From NCBI GenBank assembly GCA_965205425.1, contig CBDBGZ010000005.1:1-64000 (forward strand): DNA of 64,000 bases, read 5' to 3'. The stretch is from Nitrosopumilus sp. Its GTDB lineage: Archaea; Thermoproteota; Nitrososphaeria; Nitrososphaerales; Nitrosopumilaceae. A program made the position numbers and the translations under genes. Shown piece by piece: positions 1 through 54,750 of this stretch (positions within the stretch are counted from its first letter, which is position 1; each line of letters starts with the position of its first letter). Under the pieces are notes generated by a model. It had not been told where the DNA came from and made no database searches. It was given only the letters and a program-made list of their open reading frames with translations.

Positions 1-28
1 AAATGTTTTTAAAGATTTCACATAGATA
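1..28 (+). mobile_element. Right end of a second IS110 copy (rest upstream of window)
   Basis: 1-28 is the exact reverse complement of 1391-1418, the right end of the IS110 at 1391-2739. Confidence 0.8.
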
Positions 29-1392
29 TGTGTTTAGGTCACGCCTAGATTAAACCGAATAATTTAGATCAGAGAAGAATTTTCAAGAAATAATGGACTC
101 TAAACCGTGCAAAAACTGTGATGATTTGGCAAGAAAAAACATCGAATTGGAAATCAAAATCAAGCAGCTAGAATCAAAATTATCTTACTATGATAACCCA
201 AACTCTCCGCCATCATCTGATTCTCTCCATTGGAGGAAACAAAAGAAGAACAGAAAATCAAACCATCACAACAAACCAGGACAAAAGCCTGGACACAAGG
301 GAACAACTACTAATTTCAAACCAACAGAGACCATTCTTCACAAAACAGACCAATGCTCAAGATGTGGCAGCAAGAAGATAGAACAAACCACACAACAAAC
401 CAGAATCATTGCAGAAATTCCAAAACCGCAACCAGTTATCATAACCAAACACGTAATCCACTCATATTTTTGCAACAACTGCGGCAACACAACCACATCT
501 GATTGTGCAATACCCCAGAAAGGAAATTTGGGATTTAATTTGACAGGGATCATACTATCTCTGTGGTCAGCTAGAATTACACTAAGAAACATTGCAAAGA
601 TGCTTCAATCATTTTATTGTATAAAAATATCTGCAGGTACAATCAACAATTGTCTGTGTAACACTTCTGCAGCACTAGAACCTGTCGTAGAGAAAATCAG
701 AGATGACATCTGTACCTCAAAATCTGCGCATTTTGATGAGACAAAATATTCCATTCATGGAAATACGGGATGGGTATGGACTGGAGTGAATCAGAACTCG
801 TGTTTTATCACAGTTGAGAAAAGTCGAGGCAAAAATGTGTTACAGAAACATTTCCCATCATTTGCAGGAGTTGCAGTCTGTGATGGATGGATGCCATACC
901 ATATGTTTGGTATCAGACAGAGGTGCTGGGCCCACATACTGCGTGAGGCAAGACACACATCAGAAAAACTAGGAACAGACAATTCTACCTCATTGTATCA
1001 ATCTTTGAAAGAATTGTTTGTATACATCACATTATACAAAATAGAGAAACCAAATTATTTTCTGTATAATTATGGTGTAGAGTCATTGGAGCAAATCCTG
1101 TTACAATATACTGATGATGAATCATTACAAAAATTTCTAACCAAGATTAATAACGCAAAGAATAACCTGTTCACATTTTTGCTATATCCAGGAGTGGAAC
1201 CAACAAACAATGCAGCTGAGCGTGCATTACGAGAGTCAGTAATTTGTAGAAAGATTCGTGGATGTGTCAGGAATGAGAAGGGTATGAGAATGTTTGGAAA
1301 TTTAATGAGTTGTATTATGACATGGAAGGTTAGGAATTGCAATATTTTAGATGAAATTGTGAAATATGTGTGAGTCTGGACCTAAACACATA
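27..1392 (+). mobile_element. IS66-family element (single tnpC), both TIRs interrupted by IS110
   Basis: TATGTGTTTAGGTC at 27-40 and its reverse complement at 1379-1392; removing the IS110 restores GTATGTGTTTAGGTC. Confidence 0.85.
93..1373 (+). CDS. tnpC: IS66 family transposase
   Basis: NSPPSSD, KPGHKG, zinc ribbon, HFDET, CDG, QRCWAHILR, PTNNAAERALR motifs. Confidence 0.95.
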   Translation: MDSKPCKNCDDLARKNIELEIKIKQLESKLSYYDNPNSPPSSDSLHWRKQKKNRKSNHHNKPGQKPGHKGTTTNFKPTETILHKTDQCSRCGSKKIEQTTQQTRIIAEIPKPQPVIITKHVIHSYFCNNCGNTTTSDCAIPQKGNLGFNLTGIILSLWSARITLRNIAKMLQSFYCIKISAGTINNCLCNTSAALEPVVEKIRDDICTSKSAHFDETKYSIHGNTGWVWTGVNQNSCFITVEKSRGKNVLQKHFPSFAGVAVCDGWMPYHMFGIRQRCWAHILREARHTSEKLGTDNSTSLYQSLKELFVYITLYKIEKPNYFLYNYGVESLEQILLQYTDDESLQKFLTKINNAKNNLFTFLLYPGVEPTNNAAERALRESVICRKIRGCVRNEKGMRMFGNLMSCIMTWKVRNCNILDEIVKYV

Positions 1393-1414
1393 TCTATGTG
1401 AAATCTTTAAAAAC

Positions 1415-1612
1415 ATTTGCACTCTTTTGCAACACATGAGAATGGCTACCGCTAGAGATGATCCCATTCATTTTCAAAAGATGAAACCGGACACATATCT
1501 ATTCGAGGATCTCCCTCAGTACCATTCTTCATCCATTTATCAGAACCATGCCGCAGTTACAAAACGAGGATCTCCCTCAATGTGTTTAACGAGGATTATA
1601 GTTCTGATCATA
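1415..1612 (-). ncRNA. Putative bridge/seek RNA of the IS110 element (boundaries approximate)
   Basis: Two stem-closed loops, each with the same hairpin CGAGGATCTCCCTCA (1504-1518, 1565-1579) flanked by segments matching target and donor. Confidence 0.75.
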
Positions 1613-1620
1613 ATGTTTCA

Positions 1621-2622
1621 TTATGCATTTTTGATGCACTGGTAAAATGTCATGTTGTTTTTTAACATCCAGTAAATTATTCTCAACAGTTTGGATGCTG
1701 CTGCCACTGCAGCTTTTGATGTCCCCCTCTTTTTTGCAAGACGTTTGTAAAAATTTGTAATGGTGCTGTTTTTTGCATATCTTACATGAGAATGTACTGC
1801 CTCCACCAGAACCCAGCGTAACATGCTACTTCCTCTTCTTGTTATGGACCCATGGCGTATGGTGTCAGCTGAGTTTCTCACCGATGGTACAATTCCTGCA
1901 TATGAACACAGTTTGTGAGAATCTGAAAATCTTTCGATATTGTCAATTTCAGAGGATATGGTTAATGCAGTAAATCTTCCAACACCAGGTATTGATTCTA
2001 AGAGTTGTGCGTTAGAATCATGTTTTAGAGCATCCTTGATTCTCATGTCTGACTCTGCGATTCTATCATTGATTGATATTATCATCTTGAGATATCCATC
2101 TATTCGATAGTCATCTAATCCCAACAGTTTGTGCACATATGAATCAGAAAATGCAGTTCCTGGTATCTTGATTGCATTTTGTAAGGTTATACTGTGAATC
2201 AAATTTTTCATCCTTGTCCTGTTGCGGACTAGTTTGGTTCTATATCTCACCAGTTGTCTTGTTTGCACGGTATCTTTTTCTGGTACATGACAAGATGAGA
2301 TGTATCCTCCTCTTAGCAAATCTGCCAAGATGTGAGCATCAATCTTGTCAGTTTTTTTCTTTGATGCTGCAATTGCTTTTGTGTGATATGGGTTTGATAG
2401 TATTACATCAAATCCTAGTTCGTCTCGCAGAAACCTAAACACGCCATACCAGACAGATGATGATTCCATTACACATTTTGAGTTTTTTGGGATTGCAGAA
2501 AATGCTTTTTTGATATCCCCTCTGGTGTTTGTAATTTTTTCATTGAATAATGTATGTCCTTTATCATCCATTGTTTCGACCTGTAAGAATTCTTTGTGCA
2601 AATCAATTCCGACATAGGTCAT
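1621..2622 (-). CDS. IS110 DEDD recombinase (likely start ATG 2622; ORF open to 2730)
   Basis: YVGIDLHK, MES, KTDKIDA, SIPGVG, YAGIVPSVRNSA motifs. Confidence 0.95.
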   Translation of the reverse strand: MTYVGIDLHKEFLQVETMDDKGHTLFNEKITNTRGDIKKAFSAIPKNSKCVMESSSVWYGVFRFLRDELGFDVILSNPYHTKAIAASKKKTDKIDAHILADLLRGGYISSCHVPEKDTVQTRQLVRYRTKLVRNRTRMKNLIHSITLQNAIKIPGTAFSDSYVHKLLGLDDYRIDGYLKMIISINDRIAESDMRIKDALKHDSNAQLLESIPGVGRFTALTISSEIDNIERFSDSHKLCSYAGIVPSVRNSADTIRHGSITRRGSSMLRWVLVEAVHSHVRYAKNSTITNFYKRLAKKRGTSKAAVAAASKLLRIIYWMLKNNMTFYQCIKNA

Positions 2623-2740
2623 GGGTTTTGTCTTTCTAGTCCTAATGATTTTCTTTGGTTTTTTCTTGGAGGTGTATCTTTTAGAAACTATAGAATCAGC
2701 AGTACCATCTAAATTTCGTTGTTTATTCACATATGGTTAC

Positions 2741-3047
2741 AACTTGCTTTTGCAAGAAACTTTGCAACAGATTTTGTGTCAATAGAACCATCATCGGCAT
2801 AGCATTTGCATTGTATGGCACATAATTTACCATCGTGCTGTTCTGCTACAAGGTCAATTCCGGTGTCTATTCCATCTCTTTTTGGCCACTCATTCCACAT
2901 GTACGCTTTTTTGAATTGTCGGGTATACATGGGATCTATTTTGAAAAAATCCTTTGTTATCTTTTCAAACTTTGTTCCTAGTTCCCTAGTACTTGCAGAT
3001 TCTTTTCTTATTTTTTTGAGAACATCATCAAATGTGGTTTGAATCAT
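2741..3047 (-). pseudogene. N-terminal Mrr-like nuclease domain of a restriction/helicase (type ISP-like) gene, cut by IS66
   Basis: GTKFEK...DTGIDLVA...AIQCKCY motif; reading frame runs into IS sequence at 2740. Confidence 0.8.
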
Positions 3048-3171
3048 TTAGAATACACCTGTGTTATCCATTATTTTATGTTTATTTAACAGTGTGAATA
3101 ATCCTCCGTGCTGTGTTATTTTTGGAAACCTCAGGTACCTGACGAATTATCTTTTTAACATGTCTCCCTAG

Positions 3172-3501
3172 TTAAACACCAATGGACTCATCTTTGCTTA
3201 GTTCTAAAAATACCTTATCTCCAATTGCGATACCCATGTCTTTGTATTCATGCATTTCAAGTTTTAATCGAGTAACACCACTTTGTATTCCCATGCCACC
3301 TCCCATTCCAGACATCATCTTGTTCAAATCTTTCATCATGTCATTCATGTTTGAGAATCCCATGACTTCTGATTTTTCAAAAGGTGATTGCAAGTTTTTA
3401 GAACCGTCTTTAAGATCCCTGAGAGAGGATAGTGAGACTATTACGTATGGTGCCCCATCAGGTGCTGAATCAATGCTTTTTACTACAAATTCTTTCTTCA
3501 T
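3172..3501 (-). CDS. Hypothetical protein
   Basis: Clean 109-aa ORF with ATG start and AT-rich upstream region. Confidence 0.7.
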   Translation of the reverse strand: MKKEFVVKSIDSAPDGAPYVIVSLSSLRDLKDGSKNLQSPFEKSEVMGFSNMNDMMKDLNKMMSGMGGGMGIQSGVTRLKLEMHEYKDMGIAIGDKVFLELSKDESIGV

Positions 3502-3827
3502 CTATGTAATGACTAATTTTTGTCATATAATTTTATTTATTTCAGAGGCTTTTATCTCATCCCAGAACCTCTTACTGTGTCAGAATTGTAAGAGATCGTA
3601 AGATTAACTAAAATTATTTTTTAGAGAGTAATTCATCAATCTTAGATTCTAAATTATCTAATTTTGTGCAATTTTGTAAAACATTGTCTTTTAGTATCAT
3701 CCCTACATCTGACTTTATTACAGAAACATCGTTCTTCATCTCCTTTATTGTAATATTATTATTCTGTATTTCCACATTCAAAGAATTAAACTTTGTAATC
3801 AGATTGTCAAATCCAGATTGTATCATT

Positions 3828-4715
3828 TTATCGGCCTTGTAGAAACCATAATAAAATAACAAAATCTAATTTTCTAATCCTGTAAGCATTGTATGCAATT
3901 AACCTGTACAACATCTCATTGTCCTGAGTTGTAACATTTCTTGATGTGACATCTCCTGACATTATCTGTTTGATCACAAAAAAGATTGTTTCAGATTTGT
4001 TTCTCTGATGGTACAATTGTACAGGAAAGTTCCTCTTCATCTCCTTTCTGTGAATTCCACTGGTTCTGTAAATTGGAACTGTTCTATATCGAGTTGGAAT
4101 CATTGCAGCTGTGTTGATCTGTTCTGCACCAACATGGTTATTCTCATCATCAAAACCCATGTCACCTAACACAATATCAACTGGAACAATATTGTTGGTT
4201 TTGTACAACAATGGCAGAAAATCAGGATTATCATGTTGCATGTTGTGGTGTGTCATGACACAGCAAACAAGCTGTGTATTCATGTCAGCACAAACAACAA
4301 CTTTTAGGAAATTCCTGCGTAACTGTACTCTTTTTGTATAATAGTATGATGCTGTACTGTAACTGAATCCGCTACCATCAATTCCAGCTAGAACCAGTCT
4401 GACTTTTTTGTACAAAATGAATTCCTGCAACATTTTATGTAACAGATTTCCTTCCAGTCTTGCAGCTGCCTTTTGTAGTGTGGTGTAATGTGGAATGGTA
4501 GACAAACCAAGATATTCCTGAATTCCTACACATTCTTCTAAAAATTCTGTAAATCTTCTATAACTCTTTGATTCGTACTGTCGTATTGCCAAGAGTATGA
4601 GATGTGTCCAAACAGAATAGATATGATTTGATTTTGGATGTAAGAACCTGGGAATTCTGCATCTGGTGATTATATTGAGTAGTGTTTTGCACATTTTGAC
4701 GTATGATGAGACCAT
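3828..4715 (-). CDS. IS5-family DDE transposase
   Basis: IPHYTTL, IDGSGF, GDMGFD, YHQRNKSETIF. Confidence 0.9.
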   Translation of the reverse strand: MVSSYVKMCKTLLNIITRCRIPRFLHPKSNHIYSVWTHLILLAIRQYESKSYRRFTEFLEECVGIQEYLGLSTIPHYTTLQKAAARLEGNLLHKMLQEFILYKKVRLVLAGIDGSGFSYSTASYYYTKRVQLRRNFLKVVVCADMNTQLVCCVMTHHNMQHDNPDFLPLLYKTNNIVPVDIVLGDMGFDDENNHVGAEQINTAAMIPTRYRTVPIYRTSGIHRKEMKRNFPVQLYHQRNKSETIFFVIKQIMSGDVTSRNVTTQDNEMLYRLIAYNAYRIRKLDFVILLWFLQGR

Positions 4716-4803
4716 ACTGTAATCTGCAAATACAATCCTAATGGATCTAAATTAGCTAAAATGTATCACAATTGGGTTAAAATCAGATGGTTTCTACAAG
4801 GCC
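3833..4803 (-). mobile_element. IS5-family element type 1, copy 1 (971 bp)
   Basis: 17-bp perfect TIR GGCCTTGTAGAAACCAT; 9-bp TSD CATTTTATC. Confidence 0.95.
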
Positions 4804-5057
4804 CATTTTATCATCCATGTTAAGCATGTTCTAGTATATTATTTATTATTTACTCGAATGGGGAACTGGTAAGTTTACGGTAGATAATTCTTTACACTGT
4901 TCAATCTCAGGAGCTTTTCAACTGCCTGTTAAATTAGAGACTTTTACTGTTAAGTTAGGTGCTTTTCATATTGAAAAAAATAACTGAAATTTTTAATTAT
5001 TATTTTTGTAAATTTTCAATAAAAAATGGGTTTTAAGCACTTTGGGGGAATAATATT

Positions 5058-5461: not shown

Positions 5462-6544
5462 TAGCGAAAAGATAAAGTTCGTGAACTAAATAATTCCAAA
5501 ACAAAAAACTTTTTGATCACTATGTATGGTAAAATTTGATGAACAAGTTAGAATCACTTGAAAGCAGCATACAAAAAAGAAAACTCCAAGGTTGCAGTAA
5601 GGATGCTTGCAGTGTTGATGATTCTAAAGGATGGAAAGGACATACAGTGCACTGCAAAGACATTACACCACTGCACAAGCTGGGTGAGAAAATGGACGAG
5701 TCGTTTTGAGATAGATGGCCTCTACGACCACCCAAGAAGTGGCAGGCCAAGAACAATCTCCCAGACTCGAATGGATGCTATCATGTCAAAAGCAATGCTA
5801 ACTTTGTTTACCCCCATAATGTTGCAACAAAGTATCTTTTATTCCACTGGAGTAAAATTTCACATAACCCACATCAGAAAGATAATGCACCAATACGGCA
5901 TGTCTGCAAAAACTGCACAAAAATATCACATCAACCATGCAAGTATATCTGCTGTGAGAAGCTGGCAGCAACGCACCAAAAAGAGAATTTCACGCCTAAA
6001 AAAGAAAGGATTTGTAATTGCAATGGCTGATGAAGCATTCTTTGTAAGGGATACAAAAACAGGAAAAAAGTACTGGTCACCAGTTGCCAAGAGAATATTT
6101 CTTCCATATACAGGACGACATGAGAGTCTGGCAGTGTATGGTACAATTACAGAAAATGGCAATCAACTATTCAGAGTTTATGACAAATTCAATGCTGTAA
6201 CATTTGTAGAGTACCTAAAGGAATTGCATCAGAAATATGGCAAAATTGCAATCATTTTAGATAGAGCATCAGTTCACAAATCAAAGAAGGTAAAGGAATA
6301 CCTTGCAAACAATAGAGATGTCAAACTAATCTGGTTGCCAAAGGGATCACCATACTTGAACATGATAGAGCAGTGCTGGAAGATAAGCAAATATGCGTTG
6401 TTGGTTTCAGAGTATTATGCAATGTTTACAATAATGAACAAGGCAGTGTCAAAATATTTCAGAGTGACAAAATTCAAGCTTGATGTTGCAAATTATATCT
6501 TTAGAAATCCTGCAAAGATGTTTGCGAACTTTTGATCGTCGCTA
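5462..6544 (+). mobile_element. IS630-family element type A
   Basis: Imperfect TIRs TAGCGAAAAGATAAAGTTCG / CGAACTTTTGATCGTCGCTA; TA on both sides. Confidence 0.9.
5558..6535 (+). CDS. IS630 transposase; possibly frameshifted at the N-terminus
   Basis: RSGRP, ADEA, LDRASVH, LPKGSPYLNMIE; one extra A relative to the 15.2 kb copy puts ATG 5539 out of frame. Confidence 0.85.
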   Translation: MKAAYKKENSKVAVRMLAVLMILKDGKDIQCTAKTLHHCTSWVRKWTSRFEIDGLYDHPRSGRPRTISQTRMDAIMSKAMLTLFTPIMLQQSIFYSTGVKFHITHIRKIMHQYGMSAKTAQKYHINHASISAVRSWQQRTKKRISRLKKKGFVIAMADEAFFVRDTKTGKKYWSPVAKRIFLPYTGRHESLAVYGTITENGNQLFRVYDKFNAVTFVEYLKELHQKYGKIAIILDRASVHKSKKVKEYLANNRDVKLIWLPKGSPYLNMIEQCWKISKYALLVSEYYAMFTIMNKAVSKYFRVTKFKLDVANYIFRNPAKMFANF

Positions 6545-52699: not shown

Positions 52700-53260
52700 C
52701 TAATTTGCAAATGTTAGGCCTTTCAGATATTCATCAAGATCCCTAGTTGATGCAAACTCATACTTTGGTGGCAAATAATCTTCTTCAGTTCCAGTTTGCA
52801 CTAGATACCATCCATCAGAATCTACAAATCCTTCGAAATATTGGTCTGGCGGAGTAGGAGGATCAAAGCCATTATAGTAAATTTCAACAAATTCTGCTCC
52901 ACATGCTGGACATACACGAATTTGAGGTTCATTTTCAACTTTTAATTTGCGATAAGAGAGGTCACCTAACCAGGATAATGCATGAAAATGCTTCTTGATG
53001 CCACAATGTGTGAGAAGATAGTAAAAAGTATTGAAAACAGACTTTCGTATGCCTAAATCCTTGATAAACCATCGATTATTTTTGTAAAATACTTCTGCAA
53101 TTTTGTCTATACGTCCAAATCCCACGGCATGGAAATGTGGAGAATAATACCAACAGCGAATTTTTTTGTTAAATCTAAATGGATGAAAAATAAGCCCACA
53201 TCCTATTACACCCAATTCAGAAATAATTTTCCTAGCCTTCTTTTTTAATTCTGGAAAACC
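52700..53260 (-). pseudogene. Rolling-circle (HUH) Rep, 5'-truncated
   Basis: IFHPFR, SPHFHAVG, YYLLTHCG, WLGDLSY, CPACG. Confidence 0.75.
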
Positions 53261-53323
53261 AGCTTAGTGCCTAAAACCTCACAAATACCGTGATATTACC
53301 ATGATATAACAAATTCCATTCCA

Positions 53324-53406
53324 CTAGTCAAGCTCACTAGTCAAGCTCACTCTCACTTTATCTCACGTTCTAGTCAAGCTCACATTTACGGGCTAGTCAA
53401 GCTCAC
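53324..53406. repeat. Four perfect 14-bp direct repeats (iteron-like)
   Basis: CTAGTCAAGCTCAC at 53324, 53337, 53370, 53393. Confidence 0.92.
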
Positions 53407-53910
53407 TATTCTTTCATTTTTTTTGTGGGTTCACGAAAAAATTATTTCCCATTTTGTCCAATACTTAGGTTCACTTTTGGCCAATATCTCACACTCACAA
53501 GGGGGGTATTTGCCTAGTATTTTTCACAAGTGAAAATGAAGTGGAAGTGAAAATGAGTTATCACTCAATAAAATCATACAAACTAAAATACATCTAAACT
53601 TTCTAATTAAATTGAAGAAGTGAGGATTTGGAATGTGCCAATTTTAGTCGATTTTCACGATTCCCTAGATTGTTCTAGTTCTCACTTCTTCATTTTTTCT
53701 GATCTATAGATCTTTCCATTTGTGCCTAATCTCGTTGTTTGCATTTAGTCAAATTTAGTGAAATATTTAGTGAAATAATTGAATAGCATATTTTATAACT
53801 CACAAAAAATTAGTAAAAATGACTAAAATTGGTAAGTGAGGATTCACAATCTAGACTATGTTTAAGCTGCACTTTCTCTAGTGTAGGTTTGAATCTTCAC
53901 TTTCTAGGAA

Positions 53911-54750
53911 GTGGGGATTTTGAACTCAGTTCTTAACGCTTCACTTCCTCAATCTCGAAATAGAGTCGATGGTGTTCAAACTTCAAATTCTGAAATTTTA
54001 GATAAAGTCCTAAAATTATTCCAAACTCATAAAATTCTCACTGCTAGAGCAATAGGTGAAAATTTGGGTGTCTCAAGGGAACACGCCCAAAGAGAATATG
54101 TGAAGCCCTTGATAGCTGCAGGTAAAATTAAGAAAATTGAAACTTCAAAAGGCCAATACCAGCTAATAGATGATACTACAACAAAAGCCGATCTCACTGC
54201 AGAGTTATATTCTGAATCTGAAGTGATGCAAACACAATTTTTCAGAACATGGATTGAAAATAACACTGCTAAACAAGAGCATAAAAAATTGACACGCTTT
54301 GCTAGAATCTGTTTGGGTGAGATTAATCCAAAATTCAAGATTCACCCTGATGCAATTACAAAAGAAAATTGGGAAACTGTCATTATTACTATACGAAAAA
54401 TGCTTCTTGAATTAACCAACAAGAAAAATCTTGGATGGGGTGATAGACAAGTATTAAGACACGCTGTAAAATATGGCCTAGATGTAAATCTATCAGAAGA
54501 AAAAGGAATTAGACTAGGTATTTCGGGCGAAAAGGACAAGCCAAAAAGTGCAGATCTAAGAATTTCAAGTGAGCAAGTTGAACAGTCAAAGAAATTATTA
54601 AAAAAATTACCTTTAGAGTTTGTTAAATTTGGTGTTAAGAGCTGGACTTTTTGTCGTCCCTCAAGTATGTATTTGATAGAAACTAATGATTTGAAATTTT
54701 ATGATAGAACGGTTCTGGTGCATTCTAGTGATCTGACACATAAATCATGA
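53911..54750 (+). pseudogene. wHTH plus tyrosine-recombinase-like gene, apparently 3'-truncated
   Basis: LTARAIGENLGVSREH HTH; TFCRPSS box-I-like Arg; no HxxR/Y motifs. Confidence 0.55.

What the first reader, a model, noticed from the sequence alone, without database searches (positions are those of the whole stretch)
1..2748. Both ends of one IS66 hit by IS110: a symmetric IS110>IS66<IS110 unit
Seen: 1-40 is a perfect inverted repeat of 1379-1418, made of the IS110 right end plus the IS66 TIR, with the junction at the same base on both sides. Inference: two site-specific insertions separated the terminal G from each TIR. This probably immobilises an IS66 whose tnpC is intact, or turns it into a larger composite.
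Basis: partly seen in the sequence, partly recalled or inferred. Interest (0 to 1): 0.75.

Follow-up and report, generated by a model that had tools for sequence, protein, structure and literature searches.

The report
RNA-guided IS110 capping IS66 ends
A small jumping gene that appears to pick its landing site with its own guide RNA has inserted at the same base in the end-repeats of a second, unrelated jumping gene, a known kind of behaviour seen here with a new target in an archaeon.

Summary
Window 1-40 is a perfect inverted repeat of 1379-1418, made of 26 nt of an IS110-family end, a shared TA, and 12 nt of the IS66 terminal repeat. The junction falls at the same base on both sides.

The IS110 (1391-2739) is IS1111-like. 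Its 3' non-coding region carries loop segments matching the target G|TA|TGTGTTTAGG, which is the IS66 end, so two site-specific hits give a mirror image.

The window starts at a contig end, so only 26 nt of the left IS110 can be read here. Contig C2 holds the same left junction, with the same private IS66 alleles, behind a full IS110 preceded by G-TA as predicted.

The predicted AACTTGCT and the rest of the restriction gene are absent from the assembly. C2's outer flank (AAATAAAG, an IS630-type gene half) instead pairs with the start of contig C4. An empty-site test on that pair shows that one IS66 insertion was hit at both ends.

Which outer flank belongs to the window's copy is unresolved. 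Immobilisation of IS66 is untested.

This has precedent in IS4321/IS5075, which insert in Tn21-type repeats. This scan had already flagged guide RNAs in this genome's IS110s on other DNA. It is a new member of a known kind, of moderate interest.

The parts
1..26 (+). Last 26 nt (right end, downstream of tnp) of a left-hand IS110-A copy; the contig starts here
   Evidence: Reverse complement of 1393-1418. Identical to the End-A terminus of all A/B copies. C2 54580-54605 has the same bases behind a full IS110.
27..28 (.). TA shared by the IS110 end and the IS66 repeat (putative crossover core), left junction
   Evidence: TA lies on both sides of all 3 complete IS110-A copies. Intact IS66 reads G-TA-TGTG.
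29..1390 (+). IS66-family element body (1368 bp when counted with G/TA...TA/C). Private lineage with 16 private substitutions.
   Evidence: 98.3-98.6% identical to 6 C4 copies. SNP table. NCBIfam IS66 transposase 223 bits, cut-off 180.
93..1373 (+). IS66 transposase ORF (tnpC-like), 426 aa, intact; no tnpA/tnpB
1391..2739 (-). Complete IS110-A element (1349 bp counting both TAs), IS1111-like, tnp pointing into IS66
   Evidence: Boundaries from 4 End-A and 6 End-B junctions. 100% identical to the C2, C4-start and C9-end copies.
1621..2622 (-). IS110 DEDD transposase ORF (333 aa from the ATG; an upstream GTG at 2730 would give 369 aa)
   Evidence: Pfam DEDD_Tnp_IS110 + Transposase_20. NCBIfam 'IS110 family RNA-guided transposase' 250 bits, cut-off 140. 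Aligns to IS621 and ISCro4 transposases at E about 3e-12.
1539..1608 (-). Candidate guide-RNA module 1 (target loop): outer stem 1601-1608/1539-1546, apical hairpin 1566-1578, 5' loop strand TAAACACAT (1580-1588), 3' loop strand TTTTG-TA-AC (1556-1564)
   Evidence: Fold. Conserved architecture with compensatory outer-stem changes across A/B/B2. 9/9 complementarity to the IS66 repeat up to the insertion point. The blocks differ between subfamilies in step with their flanks. Coordinates.
1480..1534 (-). Candidate guide-RNA module 2 (donor loop): hairpin 1505-1517; 3' strand ATAGA-TA-TGTGT (1491-1502) identical to the right-end/target junction
   Evidence: Identical in A and B, which share the same right end. 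Coordinates. The assignment is inference.
2726..2739 (-). IS110 left end TA-ACCA-TATGTGAA with subterminal repeat; its partner TTCACATA-GA-TA lies at 1391-1402
2740..2740 (.). C: displaced terminal base of the IS66 right repeat (or merely the preferred base after TA)
   Evidence: Intact IS66 ends ...GTAC. However, 6 of 6 IS110-A End-B flanks start with C.
2741..2748 (.). AACTTGCT: putative IS66 8-bp target duplication with no mate in the assembly
   Evidence: No AACTTGCT+GTA anywhere: 11 AACTTGCTG sites, none at an IS end.
2741..3047 (-). First 102 codons of a restriction-type gene (Mrr_cat_2 N-terminus); relatives are 1,470-1,560 aa
   Evidence: Pfam profile positions 1-71/127. The only PF13156 match in the genome. 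Relatives in 18 of 120 family genomes.

Best explanation
The repeat is the footprint of an IS1111-like member of the IS110 family ('IS110-A', 1347 bp plus a TA). This element homes to the sequence G|TA|TGTGTTTAGG, which is the terminal inverted repeat of a single-ORF IS66-family element.

Shown: the element boundaries; the identical insertion point and inward orientation at a right IS66 end (window) and at a left IS66 end (window 1-40 and contig C2); and that IS66 arrived first, because its terminal G/C and 8-bp duplication lie outside the IS110s.

Inferred: target choice is made by an RNA from the 230-nt region downstream of tnp. One internal loop carries 9 nt complementary to the IS66 repeat up to the crossover TA. 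Its other strand carries TTTTG-TA-AC, which matches the left flank plus the IS's own first bases. Because the target is itself an inverted repeat, each IS66 offers it twice in opposite orientation, so double occupancy gives a symmetric IS110>IS66<IS110 unit.

Such a unit demonstrably arose once in this genome: outer junctions C2/C4, duplication AAATAAAG, inside an IS630-type gene. The window's IS66 is of the same lineage as C2's. It is most likely that same DNA, with its right outer flank since exchanged, deleted or mis-threaded among 100%-identical IS110 copies.

Effect on IS66 (inferred): each end now reads A-TA-TGTG... instead of G-TA-TGTG..., so it is probably crippled but could be restored by precise IS110 excision.
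For: - Perfect 40-nt inverted repeat.
- IS66 ends and 8-bp duplications in 6 of 6 intact copies.
- IS110 ends from 4 End-A and 6 End-B junctions; 3 complete copies, each 1349 bp and flanked TA...TA.
- C2 53258-54579 is a full IS110-A, followed by a 100% match to window 1-162. That match includes the two private alleles 140C/143C, which differ from 5 of 5 aligned C4 copies.
- C2's outer flank is ...AAATAAAG-G-TA and C4-start's is TA-C-AAATAAAG.... Their ORF halves cover DDE_3 positions 2-102 and 109-141. In uninterrupted copies they overlap on exactly those 8 bp, e.g. C9 72133-72140.
- Transposase: NCBIfam 'IS110 family RNA-guided transposase' 250 bits, and an alignment to IS621/ISCro4.
- Non-coding region downstream of tnp, with an 8-bp subterminal repeat.
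- Guide segments: TAAACACAT versus the target CCTAAACACA-TA. Subfamily B has TTCACAT and AACTA-TA-AC, and sits in ...AAC(T/C)A|TA|TGTGAA....
- Own guide/site pairs score 12.4 (n=11) against 9.4 for cross pairs (n=55).
- Conserved stem-loop with compensatory pairs; fold z = -2.75.
- Layout agrees with the published IS1111 seekRNA: top-strand complement 5' of the bottom-strand match, overlapping at the insertion point (PMC11187229, passages).
- The IS110/Mrr junction is also present in two public datasets (X4, X5: 414-nt piece over 2713-3126, 0 differences, 28 nt on the IS110 side).
Against: - The left IS110 of the window's own copy is only 26 nt long, because the contig starts there.
- C2's IS66 stops matching after base 162 and runs into 278 nt of unique DNA with a tRNA-Asp gene. 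So C2 may be a separate, truncated locus.
- The two outer duplications do not match (AAATAAAG left on C2, AACTTGCT right in the window), and AACTTGCT has no mate.
- One full IS110-A (C9 239009-240357) sits in a site matching the guide at only 5 of 8 positions, so specificity is loose.
- Six intact IS66 copies carry a perfect left-end target that is unoccupied.
- The window's right IS66 repeat reads ...ACA-TA where intact copies read ...ACG-TA. This is unexplained: a variant allele or a change at insertion.
- In the B2 subfamily the 3' loop strand does not match the left flanks, and one of two AGAGTTTT copies does not match its right flank.
- No RNA evidence exists, and Rfam gave no match.
- Guide/site pairs are few and not independent.
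Confidence: 0.75

Rival explanations
1. Only the right end of the window's IS66 is hit. Window 1-162 is contig-end overlap taken from a different, truncated IS66 locus (C2), and the window's true left flank lies in an assembly gap.
For: The window starts at a contig start. Window 1-162 is 100% identical to C2, which then diverges into unique DNA. Almost all contig ends lie in repeats. Available public runs are contigs only and cannot link across the repeat.
Against: C5 reads continuously from IS110 bases 1-26 through base 163 and beyond. C2 shares the window copy's private alleles 140C/143C, so two separate loci would require duplication of an already-capped IS66. Even if this rival is true, the C2/C4 pair still shows one IS66 insertion hit at both ends.
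Confidence: 0.2
2. The inverted repeat is an inverted-duplication or hairpin artefact of assembly: a mirror copy of the right-hand side.
For: Its position at a contig edge. The C9 end and C4 start both stop at the same internal IS110 base, in mirror orientation.
Against: The arms are 1338 nt apart, not adjacent. The inner 41+ bases are left-end IS66 sequence, not a mirror of the right end. Where it is assembled through, the outer flank is an IS630 gene half, not a mirror of 2741+. The Mrr domain occurs once in the genome.
Confidence: 0.03
3. Targeting is real but protein-only. The transposase recognises CACA-TA-TG, which resembles its own subterminal repeats, without any guide RNA.
For: The target (AACACA-TA) resembles the IS110's own left end (TTCACA-TA-TGG). 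Relatives nest in IS110 left ends. There are no RNA data, Rfam gave no hit, and B2 matches are poor.
Against: The family is experimentally RNA-guided (PMC11187229 and PMC11208160, passages). The loop blocks change between A and B in step with positions beyond the shared CACA (AA versus TT). The stem-loop is conserved with compensatory pairs.
Confidence: 0.1

Closest known systems
[quoted passage not shown]
   Same: An IS110-family element with subterminal repeats that homes, at one position and in one orientation, to the end-repeat of another transposable element. It also makes occasional insertions into look-alike sequences. PMC8269217 (passages) describes TIRs as a 'safe harbor' and ureC as an accidental target. 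For Partridge & Hall 2003 I saw only the title, in reference lists.
   Different: The target here is a 15-bp repeat of an IS66-family insertion sequence, not a 38-bp Tn3-family repeat (the 38 is recalled). The host is an archaeon according to earlier scan notes. The sequences are unrelated. That both repeats of one Tn21-type element can be occupied is recalled, not read here.
IS1111-type seekRNA elements (ISEc11, ISKpn4, ISPa11, ISPst6) and the IS621 bridge RNA
   Same: [quoted passage not shown]
   Different: No RNA has been detected here. The subterminal repeat is 8 bp, against 11-13 bp in PMC11187229 (but within the 7-17 bp range of PMC11208160). Terminal extensions are 4-6 and 2-4 nt, not 7 and 3. 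The protein is only distantly related to IS621 (E about 4e-12).
Single-ORF IS66-family elements (ISBst12-like group; name recalled)
   Same: IS66-type DDE transposase above the NCBIfam cut-off, GTA...TAC ends, and 8-bp duplications in 6 of 6 copies.
   Different: No tnpA/tnpB. This copy has both ends interrupted 1 nt from the tip.

Membership tests
IS110 family (DEDD, RNA-guided transposase) | DEDD/RuvC-like N-terminal domain plus Transposase_20 C-terminal domain | tested here: met
   Pfam PF01548 1.2e-27 and PF02371 2.7e-23. NCBIfam NF033542 250 bits, cut-off 140. End-to-end alignment to IS621 and ISCro4. Individual catalytic residues were not checked.
IS110 family (DEDD, RNA-guided transposase) | No terminal inverted repeats at the tips, no multi-bp target duplication, sequence-specific insertion | tested here: met
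   3 of 3 complete copies are flanked only by the same TA. Sites share (A/T)CA(C/A)(A/T)-TA-C.
IS1111 group | Long non-coding region downstream of tnp | tested here: met
   230 nt downstream (1391-1620) versus about 117 nt upstream if the ATG at 2622 is the start.
IS1111 group | Subterminal inverted repeats with short asymmetric extensions (11-13 bp; 7 and 3 bp in PMC11187229; 7-17 bp in PMC11208160) | tested here: inconclusive
   TATGTGAA/TTCACATA is 8 bp. Extensions are 4-6 nt and 2-4 nt, depending on where the TA is assigned.
IS1111 group | seekRNA with a top-strand complement 5' of a bottom-strand match, overlapping at the insertion point | tested here: met
   In silico only: 1580-1588 then 1556-1564 in RNA sense.
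IS1111 group | The RNA is made, binds the transposase and is required for transposition | not testable with these tools
   No RNA runs were available.
IS66 family | IS66-type DDE transposase | tested here: met
   PF03050 1.3e-38. NF033517 223 bits, cut-off 180.
IS66 family | 8-bp target duplication and GTA...TAC ends | tested here: met
   6 of 6 uninterrupted copies.
IS66 family | Accessory tnpA/tnpB ORFs of canonical IS66 | tested here: not met
   1368-bp element with a single 426-aa ORF. This fits the single-ORF subgroup (name recalled).
Composite transposon | Two flanking IS copies move the enclosed segment as one unit | not tested
   No second copy of the whole unit with its own duplication was found. 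The outer ends keep only G/C of the IS66 repeat.

The most novel reading that the evidence does not exclude
An archaeal RNA-guided IS acts as a hyperparasite of another IS. It caps both ends of IS66 copies one base from the tip and reversibly silences them. The lineage retargets itself by swapping or mutating a separate target-loop module: A goes to the IS66 repeat and B to the left end of another IS110, while both share an identical 155-nt donor module and right end. The capped IS66 lineage carries 16 private substitutions and has no daughter copies, as expected if it has been frozen.
Probability: 0.3. Interest if true: 0.6.

Novelty: new member of a known kind. Interest (0 to 1): 0.4.

Why it matters
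It gives a natural, sequence-level example of a bridge/seek-RNA element choosing the end-repeat of another insertion sequence as its landing pad. The example is in an archaeon, and guide and target can be read side by side in one genome. Several sister elements there differ mainly in the guide loop. That makes two things testable: guide rules for an archaeal IS1111-like system, and whether IS-on-IS insertion restrains the host IS. It also explains why this assembly breaks at these loci. Identical 1.35-kb inverted copies flanking a 1.4-kb spacer are hard to thread, so flanks around them should not be trusted without long reads.

Tried and rejected
1. I suspected the contig starts at base 1 because IS110 subfamilies A and B diverge there. 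That was an artefact of splitting my BLAST query at 1418/1419; A and B are identical for about 155 nt from that end.

2. Rfam gave no match in window 1-3200 at E<=1.

3. Looking for the junction elsewhere: 0 of 120 other family genomes with up to 2 mismatches. There were 0 exact matches in metagenome contigs and genome contigs, though records of this genome may be left out there.

4. Public runs are all assembled contigs. Laid on window 1-3300, they cannot link junctions across the 1.35-kb repeat. No joint at base 1 was reported, and 23 loose ends were not shown. X7 and X8 gave no cover over 2751-2970. Allele depths at base 140 (T:C about 5.9:1 in X4 and 1.7:1 in X5) are inconsistent and are not copy numbers, so I drew nothing from them.

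5. Searching for the missing gene half by Pfam family, and by tblastn with two full-length relatives, found only a 78-aa fragment in a rearranged paralogous locus.

6. The residue after the break (relatives have G/S) does not discriminate between an IS66-mediated and a direct IS110 insertion into the gene.

7. B2 left-flank guide matches are poor. Five of the copies tabulated (two B2 full copies, one B2b, one B, one truncated B-type) share ATAACTA just outside the typed left end, so the B2 left end may be mis-set. I did not pursue this.

8. Partridge & Hall 2003 (PMC219399) is not held. One literature search was rejected for an over-long term and was resent in shorter form.

9. Literature searches for IS1111/IS66 repeat targeting (6 papers, titles and abstract starts seen) and for archaeal ammonia-oxidiser bridge RNAs (29 papers, 10 listed) showed no report of IS110-family homing to IS66 ends.
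Full report
**What is in the sequence**

Window 1-40 and 1379-1418 form a perfect 40-nt inverted repeat with 1338 nt between the arms. The next best inverted repeat in the first 6 kb is 31 nt at 81%.

Between the arms lies a 426-aa ORF (93-1373, +). It hits Pfam DDE_Tnp_IS66 and NCBIfam IS66 transposase at 223 bits, cut-off 180.

To the right lies an ORF on the minus strand (1621-2730, or 1621-2622 from the ATG). It carries Pfam DEDD_Tnp_IS110 and Transposase_20 and scores 250 bits on NCBIfam 'IS110 family RNA-guided transposase', cut-off 140. It aligns end to end with the solved IS621 and ISCro4 transposases at E about 3e-12.

Beyond that, 2741-3047 (minus) encodes the first 102 codons of an Mrr_cat_2 restriction-type protein.

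The window is bases 1-64000 of contig C5, so nothing lies upstream of base 1.

**Element boundaries**

Six uninterrupted copies of the IS66 element on contig C4 (98.3-98.6% identical) run from GTATGTGTTTAGGTC to GACCTAAACACGTAC. All 6 of 6 are flanked by an 8-bp duplication.

For the IS110, I compared four junctions at the end downstream of tnp and six at the upstream end. The element runs from TA-TCTATGTGAAATC... to ...TTCACATATGGT-TA. It is 1349 bp counting both TAs in 3 of 3 complete copies.

Each arm of the repeat is therefore 26 nt of IS110 right end, plus TA, plus 12 nt of IS66 repeat. The insertion point is G|TA|TGTG on both sides. Because TA is present on both sides of the IS110, only the terminal G of the IS66 repeat (C at 2740 on the right) is displaced.

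**What lies to the left**

Contig C2 holds a full IS110-A (53258-54579) in the predicted orientation, followed by a 100% match to window 1-162. That stretch includes the two alleles (140C, 143C) that are private to the window's IS66 when compared with five C4 copies.

On its outer side, C2 reads ...AAATAAAG-G-TA-IS110. The form is as predicted, but the 8-mer differs, and the flanking gene is an IS630-type (DDE_3) transposase, not the restriction gene.

The predicted AACTTGCT+GTA exists nowhere in the assembly. The rest of the restriction gene (relatives are 1,470-1,560 aa) is missing, except for a 78-aa fragment in a rearranged paralogous locus on C4.

After IS66 base 162, C2 runs into 278 nt of unique DNA with a tRNA-Asp gene and then ends.

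**A complete case in the same genome**

Contig C4 starts inside an IS110-A, and its outer flank reads IS110-TA-C-AAATAAAG-....

The ORF half on C2 covers DDE_3 profile positions 2-102, and the half on C4 covers positions 109-141. In uninterrupted copies of that IS630-type element the two flanks overlap on exactly the 8 bp AAATAAAG, for example at C9 72133-72140.

This is an empty-site proof. One IS66 inserted there, making an 8-bp duplication. Afterwards an IS110 entered each of its repeats, because the IS66 terminal G and C and the duplication now lie outside the IS110s.

The symmetric IS110>IS66<IS110 unit is therefore real in this genome.

**What stays unresolved**

It is open whether the window's IS66 is that unit's IS66. 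In that case the right outer flank was exchanged by recombination, or mis-threaded by the assembler, among 100%-identical IS110 copies. Alternatively it could be a second unit. A third orphan, the end of C9, carries ...GATCCAAG-G-TA-IS110 in the orientation that could also join window base 1. A deletion between two units would explain both the mismatched duplications and the lost gene half.

My estimates:
- About 0.9 that IS110 sequence truly abuts the window IS66's left repeat.
- About 0.65 that a full-length copy stands there.

**Attempts at independent evidence**

- All 12 public runs listed are assembled contigs.
- Four of them were laid on window 1-3300. They show the IS110/Mrr junction in two datasets (a 414-nt piece over 2713-3126 with no differences and 28 nt on the IS110 side) and the other known outer flanks as loose ends. 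They cannot link across the repeat.
- The junction was not found in 120 other genomes of the family, nor in the two public contig collections.

**Mechanism**

The element is IS1111-like. It has 230 nt of non-coding DNA downstream of tnp and an 8-bp subterminal repeat, TATGTGAA/TTCACATA.

In transcript sense the region folds (z = -2.75) into two stem/internal-loop modules. Each is capped by the same hairpin, GAGGGAGAUCCUC.

Module 1 (window 1539-1608):
- Its 5' loop strand is UAAACACAU, complementary to the IS66 repeat ATGTGTTTA right up to the TA.
- Its 3' loop strand is UUUUG-UA-AC, which matches a left flank ending in TTG, then TA, then the IS's own first two bases.

This order, and the overlap at the insertion point, are what the seekRNA paper reports for IS1111-type elements (PMC11187229, passages). 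Loops of 8-14 nt pairing with target and donor are reported for IS1111 bridge RNAs in PMC11208160 (passages).

Subfamily B is 76% identical overall but identical over the last 155 nt. It has UUCACAU and AACUA-UA-AC in the same places, and it sits in ...AAC(T/C)A|TA|TGTGAATAAG, which is the left end of another IS110.

Across six guide classes:
- Own guide/site pairs score 12.4 (n=11) against 9.4 for cross pairs (n=55). The pairs are not independent.
- The outer stem shows compensatory changes between A and B/B2.

Evidence against the guide reading:
- One full IS110-A sits in a site matching at only 5 of 8 guide positions.
- B2 left flanks do not match their loop strand.
- One of two AGAGTTTT copies does not match its right flank.
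- Six intact IS66 copies carry unoccupied perfect left-end targets.
- There are no RNA data.

**Consequences (inference)**

Each capped IS66 end keeps 14 of 15 repeat bases and loses only its tip base, so IS66 cleavage is probably impaired. This is untested. IS110-family excision is described as precise, so the block could be reversible.

The capped lineage carries 16 private substitutions and has no daughter copies, while the six uncapped copies are nearly identical to each other. That is consistent with freezing but does not prove it.

Both IS110 copies point into IS66. The left one is co-directional with the IS66 gene and the right one is antisense to it.

Nothing supports movement of the whole unit as a composite.

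**Comparison with what is known**

The closest precedent is IS4321/IS5075, IS1111-group elements that insert in the terminal repeats of Tn21/Tn3-family transposons. PMC8269217 (passages) describes them as using a 'safe harbor', with accidental hits in look-alike sequence. For the founding paper I saw only the title.

What differs here is the target (an IS66-family repeat), the host (an ammonia-oxidising archaeon according to earlier scan notes e1-7820719 and e1-7820731), and the side-by-side sister elements with different loops.

Those earlier notes had already flagged guide RNAs in this genome's IS110 3' ends on other DNA. I re-derived that for this copy. The IS66-repeat homing is what this report adds.

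Two literature searches listed no report of IS110-family homing to IS66 ends.

**Verdict**

It is a new member of a known kind, of moderate interest.

Noticed in passing
G000 C8 48194, C9 263668, C9 247329 (End A); C4 98348, C8 46871, C9 246006, C9 484927, C9 86719 (End B): IS110 copies are nested in the left end of other IS110 copies at CACA|TA|TGG. This leaves ...TAACCA|TAACCATATG... and ...GGTTA|TGGTTA... junctions, so the family also targets its own kind.
   Followed up: partly
window 1391-1545 versus B copies (C9 247329, C9 263668, C8 48194): Subfamilies A and B are 76% identical overall but identical over the last ~155 nt (module 2 plus the right end). This suggests modular exchange of the target-loop module or of the donor module.
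   Followed up: partly
G000 C9 1144904, C9 484927, C9 40672, C9 86719, C5 208547, C5 229365: Six B2 copies, 95-99% alike, carry three different 8-nt blocks (AGAGTTTT, GTAATTTA, AAAATGCT) between conserved CGCGTT and TGAGGG. Each partly matches its right flank. This looks like natural reprogramming.
   Followed up: partly
window 22, runs X4 and X5: A contig reads ...GCCTGCTTGAAGA and then window 22 onward (ATAGA-TA-TGTG...). That flank is absent from the assembly, so those datasets hold a further junction onto an IS66 repeat.
   Followed up: partly
G000 C4 118807-119511: A 78-aa fragment (residues ~916-994) of a Mrr-helicase-type gene directly abuts a paralogue of window 3090-3570, with an IS on its other side. 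It is a second, heavily deleted copy of this locus.
   Followed up: partly
window 1390 (and 1068-1081): The window's IS66 right repeat reads ACA-TA where 5 of 5 other copies read ACG-TA, which makes it a perfect mirror of the left repeat. A cluster of 7 substitutions lies in 1068-1081.
   Followed up: no
G000 C8 37785-38648: Rearranged IS110-A remnants: bases 1-114 forward, 226 nt of other DNA, then bases 1322-830 reversed.
   Followed up: no
window 3819-4817 and 5558-6535: Two further insertion sequences: a DDE_Tnp_1 ORF (3828-4715) between 31-nt inverted repeats, and an IS630-type DDE_3 ORF. Nearly every contig end of this 2.2-Mb genome lies in a repeat.
   Followed up: no
run X5, joint 861 -> 27: One contig joins IS66 base 861 to G plus IS66 base 27. 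This looks like an IS66 copy inserted inside another IS66 in that dataset.
   Followed up: no
G000 C9 1194100-1194133: The flank left of the C9-end IS110 (TGGTTTAGATCCAAG) resembles the IS66 repeat GTGTTTAGGTCCAG at 11 of 14 positions by eye, but in a different geometry. It may be chance.
   Followed up: no
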